DNA of 64,000 nucleotides, taken from contig NC_085843.1 in the NCBI RefSeq assembly GCF_035594765.1, forward strand, positions 125,465,971-125,529,970, given 5' to 3'. Both the position numbers and the translations under genes were made by a program. The DNA comes from Anolis carolinensis (lineage: Eukaryota). Numbering within the stretch: position 1 is the stretch's first letter; each line of letters opens with the position of its first letter. The notes under the pieces were generated by a model. The model did not search any database. It was not told the origin of the DNA and saw only the letters and a program-made list of their open reading frames with translations. Below are positions 1 to 64,000 of the stretch, piece after piece.

Positions 1-1916
1 CCTCTCCATTTGTATCATACCTTTTAGGCAAAAATATTCTCCAGGACAGATCCTATTAATAAAAATGTCATATCCCATGGTACAAGGCAAATAAGTGAAA
101 ATAAAAGATAAGTAGATGGAAAAGATGACATAACTTTGAGAATGCCAAAGCAAAACTGACAGTGACTAATAGAAAGTTATAACTAGATGGAATCAGATTG
201 ATCTTCGATTGCAGATATGGAGGCAATGAAAATAGCAACCTGTGGTTTCTGACTGGTATTGTATAAAATCCTAAAAAAATAGTATCAGTATGTCTACCTA
301 TCTATAGCAGTGATAACTTGTTGGCCCATATTCTTCAAAATGTGACAGATGTTTTTTTATTGTCTTCCAGTTTGCAGTGCCAACTTTCTATTCGAAAATC
401 TAAAATCCAAACTGAGGTGGTAAATAGGGATTGTTAGAAGCAGAAAACAATAAAAAGCACAATTCATTGGGAGATACAGGGACAGCACTATTAGTAAGGT
501 AGGAATATAAGGTAGGAAACAAGAGAGAGTTAGGGCACTGCTGCTAAAATTCCAGAGGTTAAAGGTGATGAGAAAATGGGAGAGAGTTCTCTGAAGTAAG
601 ATTGCTAAGGTAAAAAGGGGGAAAGAGTGTGAAAAACAGTAACCCCCTGGCACTGGGTACACTTAGTTACACATAAGTTTGTTTCTCAATCGCAAACAGA
701 AAAACCTAAGGAATTTTTTTTTTGAAAGCAGAATGATACGATGAAACCTCTCTGTGACTGAAGCATTACGTCTCCTTGGTTCAGACACCATGATCCAATA
801 AAGCATGTTTATTCGGTAAGGGATGAAATTTATGACTATTATGTGCTTGCCGCTATTCTTTGCCACTCATATACTAGCTTCTGCATATATGAAACCACCA
901 ATTCCATTGTAATTGAAACCTGGAGACAGTAGCCAACCTAAATCTTTCTTTCCATGCCAACCTAGACTCAATACACTAAACTTCTTGATCTGGTTATGAG
1001 TGATGCTATAAAATGCATAGAAAAGGTTGAAAAACCAGGAGTTTTTGCTCCTGTTCTCTGAGGTTTTCTTGTCTCTATCTATATCTAGAATGCCATTGCC
1101 CTTAAATCCATCTTAAGTATCCCACAATGACAGCTTCCTGCCCTGCCCTGCCTAATGGAAAATAGTTACATAAAACCTCCCCTCTATACACCTCTCCTCT
1201 ATATACACAACCCTGGGAAGTTAGCAGGACTACCCATTCAATTCCACATCTCTGTGTCCTGTTTTTAAATGGCAACAATTCCTTCTCTTTACTGTTCAAT
1301 ACATTGTCCTTTGGACTGTGGAAAATAGCTACAAGTTTAGGTGTCTGTGTGAAATACACATCATTTAATAACCTTTCCCCTAATGTGATGATTGATTGCT
1401 TGATAGTTAGCTTCAGACAGTGGTAAAAATGATGGGAATTGTGGTCCAAGCATCTGGATAAGCCAAGGTTTTTAGAAACAGGTTAATACAATAATCCTCT
1501 TAGGTATTACTATCATTGATCAAGACAGTTGATGTTTAGGGATTTGGTAATGGAAATCTCTAGGTTGTCATTATTTCCTTTCCCGAGTAGGACAAGATCA
1601 GTGTGGACAAGAACTGGTGGAGCAGCTACTTCCATCTCTATATATATAAAAGAGTGATGGCATCACGGCAATTCACAAAACAACAAAAGTACAGGCCCCC
1701 CAACCTCAAAATTTGACAACACAACCCATCATCCACGCCTCAAGGTTGATACAACAAAAAGAAAAGAAAAATAAAGCCCTAATTAGAGGGAGAGCAATAA
1801 TTTTTTTTATCCAATTGCTGCCAGTTTAGAGGGCTAATCTCTGCCCACGTGGTTGCCTAGCAACCAGCCAAGGGACAGCCAGGTTTCAGTTAGGGGACAG
1901 GCAGATTTAGGCCTCA

Positions 1917-2150
1917 CTGAGTCTTCTTCCACAGATTATCTAATTTGCACTGGATTATATGGCAGTGTAGACTCAAGGCCCTTCCACACAGCTATATAAC
2001 CCATTTATAATCTTATATTATCTGCTTTGCACTGGATTATCTTGACTCCGCACTACCATATAATCCACTTCAGTGTGCATTTTATACAGCTGTGAAGAAG
2101 GGGCCTCAGATAATCCAGTTCTGAGCAGATAATATAAGATTAGAAATATA
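1917..2150. mobile_element. Harbinger-like palindromic MITE with a same-family copy (1976-2105) nested inside; Helitron cargo
   Basis: Inner element has GGCCCTTCCACACAG-type TIRs flanked by TCA on both sides. It splits the outer motif gactca|gataatccag, which is intact in the free copy near 11340. Confidence 0.65.
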
Positions 2151-2813
2151 CAGTAGAGTCTCACTTATCCAACGTAAACAGGCCGGCAGGATAAGTGAAT
2201 ATGTTGGATAATAAGAAGGGATTCAGGAAAAGCCAATTAAACATCAAATTAGGTAATCGTTATACAAATTAAGCACCAAAACATCATATTATACAACAAA
2301 TTTGACAGAAAAAGTACTTTCATGCGCAGTAATGCTATGTAGTATTTACAGTAGAGTCTCACTTATCCAACACTCGCTTATCCAACGTTCTGGATTATCC
2401 AACGCATTTTTGTAGTCAATGCTTTCAATATATCGTGATATTTTGGTGCTAAATTCATAAATCCAGTAATTTCTACATAGAATTACTGTGTATTGAACTA
2501 CTTTTTCTTCCAAATTTGTTGTCTAACATGATGTTTTGGTCCTTAATTTGTGAAATCATAACTTAATTTGATGTTTAATAGGCTTATCCGTAATCCCTCC
2601 TTATTATCCAACATATTCGCTTATCCAACATTCTGCCGGCCCGTTTATGTTGGATAAGTGAGACTCTACTGTACTGTATTTACAAATTTACCGCTAAAAT
2701 ATCACAATGAATTTAAAACACTGACTACAAAAACATTGATTATGAAAAGGCAGACTGCGTTGGATAATCCAGAACATTGTATAAGCGAATGTTGGATAAG
2801 TGAGATTCTTCTT
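2151..2813. mobile_element. Tc1/mariner-type MITE with an inverted same-family copy (2349-2671) nested inside; Helitron cargo
   Basis: TIR CAGTAGAGTCTCACTTATCCAAC, with TA flanks on both outer and inner elements. The outer right TIR is degenerate (gagattcttctt). Confidence 0.9.
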
Positions 2814-2879
2814 TAATATGAAATAATTACTGGGATAGAATAAAGCAGAACAATATAATCTCTAAAACCAGGACAGTAA

Positions 2880-3190
2880 ATAAACAGGGGAATTCCACAC
2901 AGGAAACAATCAGGGTCAGCTAACACCTCCCAACAAAGTATTCCCATCCTCAAAGTCTGGCAAATCCTCTGTTTTCTCAGGGCCACAGACAGTAGAAGCA
3001 CATAAAATATCGCAAACAACACCACTCTGAAAACAAGGGAATTCCAGACAGGAAACAATCAGGGCCAGCTAACACCTCCCAACAAAAAATTCACTCAGGG
3101 AGGAAACAGCCAGGCTTTAAAGCTGCAAGGTCATTACATCCTAATCATTTTTCCTAATTGCAGCATTCATACTTGCCTCCAACAAACAAA
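2880..3190 (+). mobile_element. Penelope-like segment with a ~50-bp direct repeat; Helitron cargo
   Basis: GGGAATTCCAsACAGGAAACAATCAGGGyCAGCTAACACCTCCCAACAAA occurs at 2888 and 3037. Resembles lizard Penelope terminal sequence (from memory). Confidence 0.5.
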
Positions 3191-3239
3191 AAAAACCAAT
3201 CAGAAATATTGTATATTCACAGCCTTTAAGAAATAATAT

Positions 3240-3567
3240 CCCCTGATGGCGCAGCGTGTTAAAGCGCTGAGCTACTGAACTTCTGGACTGAAAGGCCGCA
3301 GGTTTGAATTGGGGGAGCGGAGAGAGCCCCCACTGTTAGCTCCAGCTTCTGCCAACCCAGAAGTTCGAAAACATGCAAATGTGAGTGCATCAATAGGTAC
3401 TGCTCCGGCGGGAAGGTAACGCCGCTCCATGTAGTCATCCCACATGACCTTGGAGGAGTCTACGGACAACGCCGGCTCTTCGGCTTAGAAATGGAGATGA
3501 GCCCCAATCCCCAGAGTCAGACACGACTGGACTTAATGTCTGGGGAAAATCTTTACCCTTGACCTTA
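3240..3567 (+). mobile_element. Sauria SINE; Helitron cargo
   Basis: tRNA-like head, the same body as the copies at 23359 and 46743, and an (ACCTTT)-like tail. Confidence 0.9.
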
Positions 3568-3756
3568 ACTACCACCAATTCCTCAATACTTTATTTCCCA
3601 TACCACCAGATTTCGCCACAGCAACGCGTGGCCAGGCACAGCTAGTAGCATTATAAAATCCAACATTTTCATGCAGCACATGCAGCTGGATTTCAGTAAC
3701 TGCCAGGCATTGCAAGTTGCTCATAATGATCAATAACAAAAGAGTTGCCTTTAAGT

Positions 3757-5486: not shown

Positions 5487-6407
5487 TAGTATATGGTGTT
5501 ATAGGATACTAGGCGAAACCATATATAATCCTGACATATTTAAATCTTCCCTTGCAAGCAGGGCAACTCAAAATGTAAGAGGTATCCATCTATGAATCTA
5601 AAGAAGTTCTTCTCATTCCATGACAGATTCAGAATTAGGCCAGCCTTGCTAGAGTAAGTTATCTGATCTCTAGGAGAAGTTTCAATCTTCACTAATGGGG
5701 TCCCACTTACTTCCTCCCAGATAAGGTAAACATTGGCATCCACTGTTCAAGGGAAATATAATGACATATTGGAGGGAGCATGAACAAAAAACCTTCCCTT
5801 GGGGTGGCACAGTATTTGATGAGAGAAAAACTTGGGTGTATGTGCTTGTGTACAGTCTGGAGCTTGACAATTTTGCATGTTTGGATCCCAACTGTCAGAA
5901 TCTTTTCATCAGCATGGCCAGTGGTCAGAATAAATGATCTGAAATAAAAAGAGAGAAAAATCTGCTTTTTGGGGGGACATCAATAGGTGACCCCAAGTTC
6001 TCTCATTTGTTTTCGTCTATATAAAGATGATTGGCTGTCAGTGAGAAACAGATACTAATGTGCTGATTTTAACACTGGATATTATTATTAGTAGTATTCA
6101 TATCCCGCTTCTTCTCTCCCAAAGGAGACTCAAATCAGTTAACATTAAAAATCATACAATATGTAAGTTAAAACCCAAAGCATATAAACATAAAAAGTTA
6201 AATTAAATAAAGGACTTATCTAAAATACATAGTTAAAACCAATAAAAACATTAAAAACCTGGTAGCTACATAAAACACAGCACGTTGTGGCTCAGTCTTT
6301 AAAAAATTCTTCTTTACAAGCCTGCCTGAAAAGAAAGATTTTAGCTTACATATATATCCTATCATTATTATTGGCACTCTTATGGTATAAAATAATGTAT
6401 TAAAATA

Positions 6408-6730
6408 CAGTAGAGTCTCACTTATCCAACCTGAACGGGCCGGCAGAAGCTTGGATAAGCGAATATCTTGGATAATAAGGAGGTATTAAGGAAAAGCCTA
6501 TTAAACATCAAATTAGGTTATGATTTTACAAATTAAGCACCAAAACTTCATGTTGTACAACAAATTTGGCAGAAAATGTAATTCAATACGCAGTAATGCT
6601 ATGTAGTAATTACTGTATTTATGAATTTAGCACCAAAATATCACCATATATTGAAAACATTGACTACAAAAATGGCTTGGATTATCCAGAGGCTTGGATA
6701 AGCGAGGCTTGGATAAGTGAGACTCTACTG
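6408..6730. mobile_element. Tc1/mariner-type MITE (free copy of the Helitron-borne family)
   Basis: Perfect TIRs CAGTAGAGTCTCACTTATCCAA; TA TSD. Confidence 0.92.
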
Positions 6731-7149
6731 TATATGGTTATTTTGGAAATAAGCTGAGTTGTGTCCAAGCAAGTGTTTATATGATTATTCACTGTAGTTT
6801 CTGTAAATCTCATAGCACTCCCTTAGGAGGTGGGATGTGGTTTAAAGCTAAAGGTGTTATGGCTTAGCACATTGCATATTTTTCAGAACTTTACTAGACC
6901 AGCTATTTGAAAAGAAGACCCAATTATAACAATTAAATAGCTAGTAGCCTGAAACAAATGCAGAATATTACACTTTAGTCTGGATAAGGCATCCTTACTG
7001 TGGTTTTCTAATCACATTTCAGTTGTTTTTCTCCCTCAGGTCAAACAATTTCTGTCCTTTAAAATTTCCTCTTCTAACATGTATTGTACACACTAATATG
7101 TAAGTTCAAAAAATGACAAAACATCAACCCAAAAAAGGTCGACTTCTCC

Positions 7150-10511: not shown

Positions 10512-11767
10512 CAGGCCTGTAGCCAGAAAAAAACTTCAGTAGGGGTGGAAACTTTTCCCCCCCAAGATGACTTTTCAGGTCAGTGTCTCCTGATCTGGCA
10601 TGATATCTCAACAAGGTCCTGAAATCATTATGCATTATTATGCAAAGATTCTTCATGGGTAATAGGCCCTGAATGATTGCTCCCTCCTTAGGTCAGCTCT
10701 TGTTGGCCACAAAAGACAATAGTTTCCACAACTGGCAGAAGTTTCTTTCTGTGTTCTTCTGCTTTCTTATTATTTCCTTTATCATGATGACTGGTTAAAC
10801 CAAGGTGTTTTCCACTGTGAATTAGCAAGAGATTTTCAGTCAAGCACAAGTTGTTCTGATGGTATTCTGTTTTTTTGGGGGGTTTTATCTATTGAACTTG
10901 TATTGCATCTTTCCATTGCACAAATGGTTTAGCAACCAATGCACCAAGCTGCTGATGACCAGCTTTACCCCCAACTTCTCCTCCAAACACCACACAGTAC
11001 TTACAGTTTGCACCTTTTACATGAAATGAGTAGGCTAGCCAGGGAAATCTGCTGAACCATTTGGGTTGAAAATTTAGATGTGCCTTCTTATCCACAGGAA
11101 ATACATATTTTGGCAATGAGCTTTCACTTGGTCATCAGAAACAGCCTTGTTCATATAGAGTCCAAAGTCTAACAATGACAGCTCTTGTCTTTGCTCCTGT
11201 TCCATGGCTTCTTTGACAGGGTTTGGATTAGATGAACCGGTGGGAGACACCGTTTCTACAGTTTTTTCAGGCCCTTTCCACAAAGCTGAATAAAATCCCA
11301 AATTTTCTGCTTTGAACTGGAATATATGGCAGTGTGGACTCAGATAATCCAGTTCAAAGCAGATATTGTAGGGTTTTCTGCCTTATATTCTGCGTTACAT
11401 GCCTTTGTGAAAGGGCCATCAGTTTTCACCTGCAATTCAGGTCAAATTCCACCCCCACCCCCCACATACACCTTAAGCTTTGCTGCTGGCTGAGGATAAA
11501 TCAACTGGTCTCTTCCACCATGTCAGCTATTGCTGCTATTGCAATGTAAATTGGTGTAAAGGTAGGTAATGATAGTGTGAATAATAAAAATTTTGGTTGA
11601 GATAGTGCTTGCAGTTCTGGAGGGACTCTAATTTTTGCTTCTCATATACTTGGCATGAGGATTTGGTTAACCAGTTAAAATTCATGTGTAAACCAGGATT
11701 TCTTTTGACTTGAAAAATTCCAGGGGTTGTTTGAACCCCTAAACCACCCCCCTTGGCTATGGGCTTG
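10512..11767 (-). mobile_element. Internally deleted hAT (Tip100/TTF-zinc-finger type) transposon with a decayed transposase N-terminus
   Basis: Imperfect TIRs CAGGCCTGTAGCCAG / CAAGCCCATAGCCAA. Broken minus-strand frames give FQPKWFSRFPWLAYS....GANCKYC, L.PVVETIVFCGQQEL and NDFRTLLRY...GD..LK.HL. Confidence 0.82.
11270..11418. mobile_element. Harbinger-like MITE inserted in the hAT element
   Basis: TIRs GGCCCTTTC(C)ACAAAG; internal palindrome ctgctttgaactgga / tccagttcaaagcag; TCA on both flanks. Confidence 0.75.
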
Positions 11768-23358: not shown

Positions 23359-23683
23359 AAAGGTAAAGGTTTTCCCCTGACGATAAGTCCAGTTGTGACC
23401 GACTCTAGGGGTTGGTGCTCATCTCCATTTCTAAGCCGAAGAGCAGGCGTTGTCCGTAGACACCTCCAAGGTCATGTGGCCGGCATGACTGCATGGAGCG
23501 CCGTTACCTTCCCGCCGGAGCGGTACCTATTGATCTACTCACATTTGCATGTTTTCGAACTGCTAGGTTGGCAGGAGCTGGGGCTAACAGCGGGCGCTCA
23601 TTCCGCTCCCGGGATTTGAACCTGGCACCTTTTGGTCCACAAGTTCAGCAGCTCAGTGCTTTAACGCACTGTGCCACCAGGGG
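23359..23683 (-). mobile_element. Sauria SINE, full length
   Basis: (ACCTTT)n tail, tRNA-like head, 11-bp TSD CACCATATATA (23348 and 23684). Confidence 0.93.
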
Positions 23684-62311: not shown

Positions 62312-64000
62312 CTAGCTGTGCCCGGCCACGTGTTGCTGTGGCGAAGTATGGTGGTATGGGAAATAAAGTATTGAGAAATTGGTGGTAGTTAAGGTAAAGG
62401 GTAAAGGTTTTCCCCAGACATTAAGTCCAGTCGTGTCTTACTCTGGAGGTTGGTGCTCATCTCCATTTCTAAGCCGAAGGGCCGGCGTTGTCCGTAGACT
62501 CCTCCAAGGTCATGTGGGATGACTGCATGGAGCGGCGTTACCTTCCCGCCGGAGCAGTACCTATTGATGCACTCACATTTTCATGTTTTCGAACTTCTGG
62601 GTTGGCAGAAGCTGGGGCTAACAGTGGGGGCTCTCTCCGCTCCCCCAATTCAAACCTGTGGCCTTTCGGTCCAGAAGTTCAGCAGCTCAACGCTTTAACA
62701 TGCTGCGCCATCAGGGGATATTATTTCCTAAAGGTTGTGAATATACAATATTTCGGATTGTTTTTTTTTTTTTGTCTGTTGGAGGCAAGTATGAATGCTG
62801 CAATTAGGAAAAATGATTAGGATGTAATGGCCTTGCAGCTTTAAAGCCTGGCTGTTTCTTCCCTGAGTGAATTTTTTGTTGGGAGGTGTTAGCTGGCCCT
62901 GATTGTTTCCTGTCTGGAATTCCCTTGTTTTCAGAGTGGTGTTGTTTGCGATATTTTATCTGCTTCTACTGTCTGTGGCCCTGAGAAAACAGGATTTGCC
63001 AGACTTTGATGATGGGAATACTTTGTTGGGAGGTGTTAGCTGGCCCTGATTGTTTCCTGTGTGGAATTCCCCTGTTTATTTACTGTCCTGGTTTTAGAGA
63101 TTATATTGTTCTGCATTATTCTATCCCAGTAATTATTTCATATTAAAGAAGAATCTCACTTATCCAACATTCGCTTATACAATGTTCTGGATTATCCAAC
63201 GCAGTCTGCCTTTTCATAATCAATGTTTTTATAGTCAGTGTTTTAAATTCATTGTGATATTTTAGTGGTAAATTTGTAAATACAGTACAGTAGAGTCTCA
63301 CTTATCCAACATAAACGGGCCGGCAGAACGTTGGATAAGCGAATATGTTGGATAATGAGGAATTAAGGATAACCCTATTAAACATCAAATTAAGTTATGA
63401 TTTTACAAATTAAGCACCAAAGCATAATGTTAGACAAAAAATTTGTCAGAAAAAGTAGTTCAGTACACAGTAATGCTATGTAGTAATTACTGTATTTATG
63501 AATTTAGCACCAAAATATCACGATATATTGAAAGCATTGACTACAAAAATGTGTTGGATAATCCAGAACATTGGATAAGCGAGTGTTGGATAAGTGAGAC
63601 TCTACTGTAAATGCTACATAGCATTACTGCGCATGGAACTACTTTTTCTGTCAAATTTGTTGTATAATATGATGTTTTGGTGCTTAATTTGTATAACGAT
63701 TACCTAATTTGATGTTTAATTGGCTTTTCCTGAAAATCTTCTTATTATCCAACATATTCACTTATCCTGCCGGCCTGTTTACTTTGGATAAGTGAGACTC
63801 TACTGTATATTTCTAATTTTATATTATCTGCTCAGAACTGGATTATATGAGGCTCCTTCTTCACAGCTGTATAAAATGCACACTGAAGTGGATTATATGG
63901 TAGTGTGGAGTCAAGATAATCCAGTGCAAAGCAGATAATATAAGATTATAAATGGGTTATATAGCTGTGTTGAAGGGCCTTGAGTCTACACTGCCATATA
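62312..64000 (-). mobile_element. Composite non-autonomous Helitron, copy 2 (5' ~320 bp lies beyond the window)
   Basis: a|CTAG plus hairpin at 62312-62342. The reverse complement is colinear with 1956-3645 across all modules. Confidence 0.92.

What the first reader, a model, noticed from the sequence alone, without database searches (positions are those of the whole stretch)
1635..3645. Composite Helitron that moves several other transposon classes as one unit
Seen: canonical Helitron termini (A|TC, hairpin, CTAG|T, no TSD) enclose, in order, a Harbinger-like MITE pair, a Tc1/mariner MITE pair, a Penelope-like segment and a full Sauria SINE. The same modules in the same order recur inverted from 62312. 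Both copies share the same damaged outer-MITE TIR (gagattcttctt), so the cargo was copied with the Helitron rather than inserted twice. Inference: rolling-circle transposition amplified a SINE and cut-and-paste MITEs without their own enzymes, which would inflate their copy numbers and distort age estimates. Composite Helitrons are, to my recollection, already reported in Anolis, so the phenomenon may not be new even if this exact architecture is.
Basis: partly seen in the sequence, partly recalled or inferred. Interest (0 to 1): 0.7.

Follow-up and report, generated by a model that had tools for sequence, protein, structure and literature searches.

The report
Helitron carrying six nested transposon pieces
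This 2-kb rolling-circle transposon, found in about 1,900 or more copies, carries six pieces of other transposons as passive cargo and is likely an already published anole lizard family, but cargo held long in its lineage shows a one-strand loss of guanines that likely arises during repeated copying.

Summary
Confirmed, but largely known. Window 1635-3645 is a non-autonomous Helitron. It has A|TC and CTAG|T ends, no TSD and unrelated flanks, and its damaged-TIR marker occurs 1,882 times. It carries a nested 3-bp-TSD MITE pair, a nested Tc1/mariner MITE pair, a Penelope-like 3' piece and a near-full SINE.

An older 1.15-kb family lacks the Tc1 pair and the SINE, so cargo arrived stepwise and was then copied. 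Intact RepHel elements share its ends and are the likely drivers. Inflation of cargo counts is modest (about 4-7% of MITE TIRs, about 12-20% of one SINE motif), but cargo SINEs look five times too old.

Side lead: four cargo pieces inside RepHel-type relatives lost 63 of 146 non-CpG plus-strand G against 18 of 198 C, with G>C 32 against C>G 2. Post-insertion changes and hobo cargo are symmetric; one piece shows no bias. This scan noted both the family and the strand bias earlier on other DNA of this genome.

The parts
1635..1920 (+). Helitron 5' body; family start TC at 1637, extra TC at 1635-1636 in this sub-lineage
   Evidence: Shared endpoints; 1637-1758 is 88% identical to the 5' end of RepHel element L047
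1921..2147 (.). Outer 3-bp-TSD (Harbinger-like) MITE, right end truncated, interrupted by the inner one; boundaries approximate
   Evidence: Inverted repeats; free relatives; present in the older family
1976..2105 (.). Inner 3-bp-TSD MITE, flanked by TCA/TCA
   Evidence: Sequence; TCA duplication also in relatives
2151..2813 (.). Outer Tc1/mariner-type MITE, TA TSD, right TIR damaged at three positions
   Evidence: Empty site in the older family; TIR equals that of TcMar-N7/N8_AC; marker count
2349..2671 (.). Inner 323-bp Tc1/mariner-type MITE in opposite orientation, TA TSD
   Evidence: Free copies up to 95% identical with TA flanks; length equals TcMar-N7_AC
2816..3192 (+). Penelope-like 3' segment with a 149-bp unit present twice here; about 2-5 units in other copies
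   Evidence: Same sequence follows RT/endonuclease-like frames in free copies; unit; length classes
3193..3239 (+). Remnant of the last codons of the RepHel gene; the SINE sits at its stop codon
   Evidence: Translations match the RepHel C-terminus of L045 and the older family
3240..3565 (+). Near-full SINE (Sauria SINE name recalled), no TSD, altered B box
   Evidence: Empty site in the older family; clade apart from free copies
3566..3645 (+). Helitron 3' body with short hairpin (3615-3632) and CTAG end
   Evidence: Last 31 bp match RepHel elements L044-L047 at 30 of 31; fold
62312..64000 (-). Second copy, runs 315 bp past the window end, in head-to-tail tandem with a deleted relative

Best explanation
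The stretch is a non-autonomous Helitron whose six nested transposon pieces are passive cargo, likely copied in trans by the RepHel enzyme of intact 7.2-kb Helitrons that share its ends. Shown: termini, dispersed copies, shared cargo junctions, an older family with empty Tc1 and SINE sites, a RepHel C-terminal remnant, and intact RepHel genes with the same 3' end. Inferred order: a deleted Helitron gained the 3-bp-TSD MITE pair and Penelope-like piece, then the outer MITE, the SINE and the inner MITE. One such master then amplified and spawned shorter deletion derivatives. Inferred from Helraiser work: RepHel nicks the plus strand at TC, peels it, stops after the hairpin at CTAG and inserts at A|T. 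Targets with TATAA just downstream are preferred, which resembles its own 5' end and would explain the head-to-tail tandems. It is likely Helitron-2N3_AC of Novick et al.
For: Ends and flanks. Copy marker 1,882; 61 of 62 sampled copies keep at least one Helitron end or continuous element sequence, L077 is the exception. Older family: all 24 fetched loci match the SINE-free 3' end, and most show the MITE-free site. Partners: L044-L046 have open frames of 1,381-1,511 aa; L044 and L045 carry Helitron_like_N and PIF1. Remnant. Derivatives: 10,284 exact SINE-tail/Helitron junctions; all 40 fetched carry the Helitron 3' body. Target: TATAA in 53 of 99 non-tandem 3' flanks, 13 expected by shuffling. 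Literature: PMC3014272 Helitron passage, Tables 1-2 and Discussion part 1; PMC4778049 and PMC5876387 passages.
Against: Identity with Helitron-2N3_AC rests on length, copy number, divergence and cargo type only; the supplement could not be read, and 2N5 is also 2,000 bp. That paper names only Poseidon and SINE fragments. The intact partners L045/L046 share only about 15 terminal bases and a 75% stretch with the composite's 5' end; the best 5' match (L047) has a broken frame. The SINE has no TSD. Counts come from exact motifs and from the start of one contig.
Confidence: 0.92

Rival explanations
1. The two window copies are a segmental duplication, or the modules inserted independently at each locus.
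For: TA-rich sites are hit repeatedly: L077 and L203 show MITEs at other nearby sites.
Against: Flanks are unrelated in 30 of 30 loci. Junctions and TIR damage are shared. Cargo SINEs form one clade.
Confidence: 0.01
2. The SINE and Penelope-like pieces were captured by the Helitron (end bypass or template switch) rather than inserted into it.
For: The cargo SINE has no TSD and lacks a few 5' bases, while most full-length free copies show 8-15-bp duplications. End bypass is shown for Helraiser.
Against: The older family has the same sequence on both sides of the SINE, with only a few bases lost, which end bypass would not give. Both Tc1 MITEs have TA TSDs.
Confidence: 0.2
3. The plus-strand G loss in long-held cargo comes from selection against strand structure, or from transcription of autonomous elements, not from damage during rolling-circle copying.
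For: The effect is strongest in RepHel-type elements. It is absent on the short recent branches of the non-autonomous subfamilies (G 10/424 vs C 13/527). The internal hairpin of the captured piece is destroyed. A Penelope frame is also G-poor at 4-fold sites.
Against: G>C equals G>A (32 each), unlike post-insertion singletons (25 vs 72). The stem of the non-coding composite shows it too (G 26/233 vs C 13/270, p=0.015). It follows the Helitron strand, not the cargo orientation.
Confidence: 0.35
4. The element is an unpublished family, distinct from Helitron-2N3_AC.
For: It holds four MITEs not named in PMC3014272. Divergence from majority is 1.4% against 0.85% published.
Against: The paper calls 2N3 the only composite Helitron family, with the same length, copy class and cargo types.
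Confidence: 0.18

Closest known systems
Helitron-2N3_AC, Anolis carolinensis (Novick et al., PMC3014272; passages, sections 8 and 13 part 1 read)
   Same: About 2,000 bp, more than 1,000 copies, about 1% divergence, Penelope (Poseidon) and SINE fragments, no TIRs
   Different: Two MITE pairs, a variable 149-bp unit, the assembly order, the deletion derivatives and the partner elements are not in the passages read. The 'TA TSD' listed there fits chance at AT-rich sites (2-bp match in 13 of 44).
Composite hobo-N families of the anole (same paper)
   Same: A non-autonomous DNA transposon amplifies SINE and Penelope cargo; the paper already states that this raises cargo copy number
   Different: Cut-and-paste with TIRs and 8-bp TSD; their cargo shows no G>C signature here
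Helraiser and bat Helitrons (PMC4778049, PMC5876387, PMC4224331; passages read)
   Same: TC/CTAG ends, hairpin, A|T target, AT-rich 3' flank, tandem copies, nested retroposed cargo shown by empty sites
   Different: No strand-biased mutation of cargo in the passages seen; a defined TATAA motif is not stated there
TcMar-N7/N8/N12_AC MITEs (PMC3014272 Table 2)
   Same: Same first 20 TIR bases, TA TSD, 323 bp for the inner MITE
   Different: Here moved passively; outer copy has a damaged TIR

Membership tests
Canonical non-autonomous Helitron | 5' TC and 3' CTRR ends shared by dispersed copies | tested here: met
Canonical non-autonomous Helitron | Insertion between A and T without TSD | tested here: met
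   45 of 48 A before TC; 58 of 58 T after CTAG; 5-bp TSD 0 of 44
Canonical non-autonomous Helitron | Subterminal hairpin | tested here: inconclusive
   Palindrome 3615-3632 is conserved with RepHel elements and folds in two of three ends tested, but not beyond shuffles
Canonical non-autonomous Helitron | RepHel-encoding partner with matching ends | tested here: met
Canonical non-autonomous Helitron | Mobilisation by RepHel | not testable with these tools
   Needs a cell assay
Helitron-2N3_AC | About 2,000 bp, more than 1,000 copies, low divergence | tested here: met
   23 of 44 measured copies 1,973-2,057 bp, 16 of 44 about 2,150 bp; 1,882 markers; 1.4%
Helitron-2N3_AC | Poseidon and SINE fragments | tested here: met
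Helitron-2N3_AC | Identity to the published consensus | not testable with these tools
   Supplement not readable; no repeat library on hand
Tc1/mariner MITE (TcMar-N7/N8/N12_AC) | TIR sequence and TA TSD | tested here: met
PIF/Harbinger MITE | 3-bp TSD | tested here: inconclusive
   Inner MITE TCA/TCA; the few free copies have TNA-like but imperfect flanks
PIF/Harbinger MITE | Autonomous DDE_Tnp_4 element with the same TIR | tested here: inconclusive
   No TIR pair within 1.5 kb of any of 20 DDE_Tnp_4 matches; 3 loci have single loose hits. Flanks are short. PMC3014272 reports only domesticated copies.
Penelope-like element | Follows a frame with RT and GIY-YIG endonuclease | tested here: inconclusive
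   L237 frame of 341 aa has RVT_1 at E=0.0013, below cut-off, and no GIY-YIG Pfam hit; L244 has none. GIY-YIG-like motif read by eye from recall. Cargo-like DNA follows it.
Sauria SINE | tRNA-like head with A and B boxes, ACCTTT-type tail, TSD in free copies | tested here: inconclusive
   Features seen by eye; definition recalled; Rfam gave 0 matches
Sauria SINE | 3' tail shared with Bov-B LINE | not tested
   No Bov-B element fetched; link stated in PMC3899998 passages

The most novel reading that the evidence does not exclude
Rolling-circle copying is itself mutagenic on one strand. Helitron lineages lose plus-strand guanines (minus-strand cytosines) by G>C and G>A at about seven times the rate of A/T change, so nested cargo records how often a lineage was copied and which strand lay exposed.
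Probability: 0.55. Interest if true: 0.7.

Novelty: already known. Interest (0 to 1): 0.42.

Why it matters
The composite itself is probably a published anole family, so it matters mainly for annotation. A few percent of one MITE family and roughly a tenth or more of one SINE motif are passengers, and cargo SINEs would be dated about five times too old. The strand-biased G loss matters more if it holds. It would point to the exposed strand of the Helitron intermediate in a germ line, explain G-poor Helitron plus strands, and break the neutral-clock assumption used to date Helitrons and judge their horizontal transfer.

Tried and rejected
Strand bias inside the young composite family: none in singletons (G 122 vs C 178 on 350 and 439 sites) or in alleles shared by 3 or more copies; doubletons lean to G (32 vs 18, p=0.006). 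SINE and inner-MITE cargo of the composite show none.

One-time burst at capture: not favoured, since G loss continues after the L045/L287 split (9 of 121 G vs 6 of 200 C, not significant alone). APOBEC or AID motif: no clear context. Bias over all codon positions of RepHel: none.

Pieces without bias or without power: L285 Penelope piece (G 3/38 vs C 7/62), L292 pieces, L048 MITE, L051 and L052 3' pieces.

Free SINEs derived from the cargo copy: 0 of 24. Harbinger partner: not found. Protein search of the Penelope-like piece gave one unrelated lectin-annotated Anolis protein. Rfam: no match.

Paper searches for Helitron strand bias (listings only) and a passage search of PMC9099904 showed no report; the library lacks most subscription journals. 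Piskurek et al. 2009 was not read; it is known only as cited in PMC3014272.

Full report
Observation. Window 1635-3645 and the inverted copy from 62312 align at 95-97%. A search of the own genome (1.85 Gb) gave 9,433 candidates; all 40 scored are full length at 97-100%. The 30 loci fetched all end at CTAG followed by T, with unrelated flanks. The family starts at 1637; only this copy and L002 have an extra TC. For a sample not chosen by similarity to the window, I took the first 62 of 1,882 exact matches to the damaged-TIR marker (loci). The 3' end was found in 58, always before T. A 5' TC was located in 48, after A in 45. None of 44 has a 5-bp TSD. Mean divergence from the majority is 1.4% over 58 copies. 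The organism is likely the green anole: an inference from one UniRef hit and from the match to PMC3014272.

Anatomy. Inside the ends lie an inner MITE with a TCA duplication (1976-2105) within a truncated relative, then a 323-bp MITE (2349-2671) within a related MITE (2151-2813), both with TA duplications. A Penelope-like piece, a RepHel remnant and a SINE follow. The Tc1 TIR equals that of TcMar-N7/N8_AC. The Penelope-like piece follows RT/endonuclease-like frames in free copies, but Pfam support is weak. Its 149-bp unit varies in number, giving classes near 2.0 and 2.15 kb. The Harbinger label stays unproven. Bases 3193-3239 translate like the last codons of RepHel, and the SINE sits at the stop, so the element descends from an autonomous Helitron.

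History. A neighbour in L010 and 23 relatives form an older family of about 1.15 kb. It has the 3-bp-TSD pair and Penelope-like pieces but empty sites for the Tc1 pair and the SINE. A sister composite at about 91% shares part of the TIR damage. All 22 Helitron-borne SINE rows form one clade apart from 24 free ones. Inner MITEs of the two subfamilies each form a clade, and their common origin is unresolved. The SINE-tail junction has 10,284 exact matches. Of the first 46 on C1, I fetched 40, leaving out five that belong to composites already held and one other; all 40 carry the Helitron 3' body, and most are short deletion derivatives.

Driver and target. PF14214 gave 26 matches; 21 regions were fetched. 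L044-L046 have open frames of 1,381-1,511 aa and end in the same 31 bases at 30 of 31; L044 and L045 carry Helitron_like_N and PIF1. In 99 non-tandem 3' flanks (22 of 121 dropped as tandem or microsatellite), positions +7 to +11 are 97-99% A/T. TATAA occurs in 53, against 13 by shuffling and 40 of 709 AT-rich background sites. Five of 58 3' flanks begin with another Helitron 5' end. An AT-rich 3' target bias is known for Helraiser (PMC4778049 passages).

Inflation and age. The intact TIR motif has 120,506 matches and composites hold 2.6 each. That gives about 4% from marker-bearing copies, or 6-7% if the true number is near 2,750-3,100 (my estimate from divergence and from 18 of 30 hits carrying the marker). 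The SINE core motif has 48,627 matches. Six of the first 30 are Helitron-borne, and at least 12 of the first 100 by my comparison of the lists. Cargo SINEs are 10.2% from the free majority but 2.1% from their own; inner MITEs 4.1% and 1.2%.

Prior art. PMC3014272 (abstract, passages, section 8 part 1, section 13 part 1) lists Helitron-2N3_AC: 2,000 bp, more than 1,000 copies, 0.85% from consensus, with Poseidon and SINE fragments, the only composite Helitron family. It states copy-number inflation for hobo cargo. Its supplement could not be read and may hold the deciding consensus. Nested retroposed cargo is described in bat Helitrons (PMC4224331 passages). PMC2997563 and PMC3899998 were seen as passages. 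The phenomenon is therefore known.

Side lead. L044-L046 carry upstream of RepHel a 500-bp piece of this lineage with the same SINE junction and a destroyed terminator. It has 61 changes on the autonomous branch against 7 on the composite branch: G>C 18, C>G 0, G lost 37 of 96, C 14 of 118. Three more pieces agree: a reverse-oriented unrelated SINE in L047 (G 15/29, C 6/32), a MITE in L052 (13/31, 4/34) and a Penelope piece in L047 (7/21, 1/20). The first of these was noticed by eye before testing. Pooled over these four, non-CpG G 63 of 146 against C 18 of 198, p=2e-13; A and T changed at 28 of 484 sites. The pool leaves out pieces that showed no bias, so the p-value overstates.

Further support for the lead. 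The composite stem shows a weaker excess (G 26/233, C 13/270), partly polarised against a sister family rather than a true outgroup. Four-fold RepHel sites lean the same way with small numbers. Controls are symmetric: composite singletons and free copies, old-family private changes and seven other insertions in or near RepHel loci (G 48/409, C 43/373, summed by hand; not all are surely outside the elements). Hobo cargo has G 5/111, C 11/122 and no G>C; its residence time may be short, and two free SINEs were in that group.

Against the lead. The L285 piece shows no bias. Recent composite branches and its SINE and inner MITE show none, and all-position RepHel changes show none. My preferred mechanism is inferred: cytosine damage on the reused minus-strand template, bypassed by translesion synthesis. 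Template reuse is in PMC5876387 (abstract and passages); the abasic-site/REV1 step is recalled. Five searches showed no report of it. An earlier unreviewed note of this scan reports the same bias elsewhere in this genome; I read it after obtaining my result, and it is not independent support.

Verdict. Interest rests on the mutation signature.

Noticed in passing
L045:2148-2647 (also L044, L046, L287): Intact autonomous Helitrons carry the 3' end of this non-autonomous lineage, SINE included, upstream of RepHel, with its terminator hairpin destroyed. A splice-acceptor-like sequence just before the frame suggests the piece lies in an intron.
   Followed up: yes
L077:1354-2286: A piece of the composite (both Tc1 MITEs and the start of the Penelope-like part) lies without Helitron ends next to further MITEs; it may have been re-mobilised or rearranged.
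   Followed up: no
L160-L163 (G000:C1:1304769-1305222): A SINE whose 3' half is repeated four times in tandem at about 144 bp.
   Followed up: no
L009:1325-1500 and L016:1325-1500: A 176-bp minimal Helitron made of a 145-bp 5' end and the 31-bp 3' end, in tandem with composites; it may define the minimal cis sequence.
   Followed up: partly
L048 and L294: The 9-kb contig C193 is 99.9% identical to a stretch of C3 around a Helitron; possibly a haplotype duplicate in the assembly.
   Followed up: no
L049, L050, L053, L290, L292, L293: A second RepHel family, about 50-60% identical in protein, with internally repetitive 5' regions; the two copies counted (L049, L050) are also G-poor at 4-fold sites.
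   Followed up: partly
P0001: A UniRef Anolis protein named C-type lectin contains a translated piece of the Penelope-like repeat; possibly an exonised repeat or a gene-model error.
   Followed up: no
window 6406-6735, 23359-23683, 46770-47047, 50889-51254, 11269-11417: Free copies of the Tc1 MITE, the SINE and the 3-bp-TSD MITE within the window; used as outgroups.
   Followed up: yes
window 44370-44542: A 173-base run of N, outside the finding.
   Followed up: no
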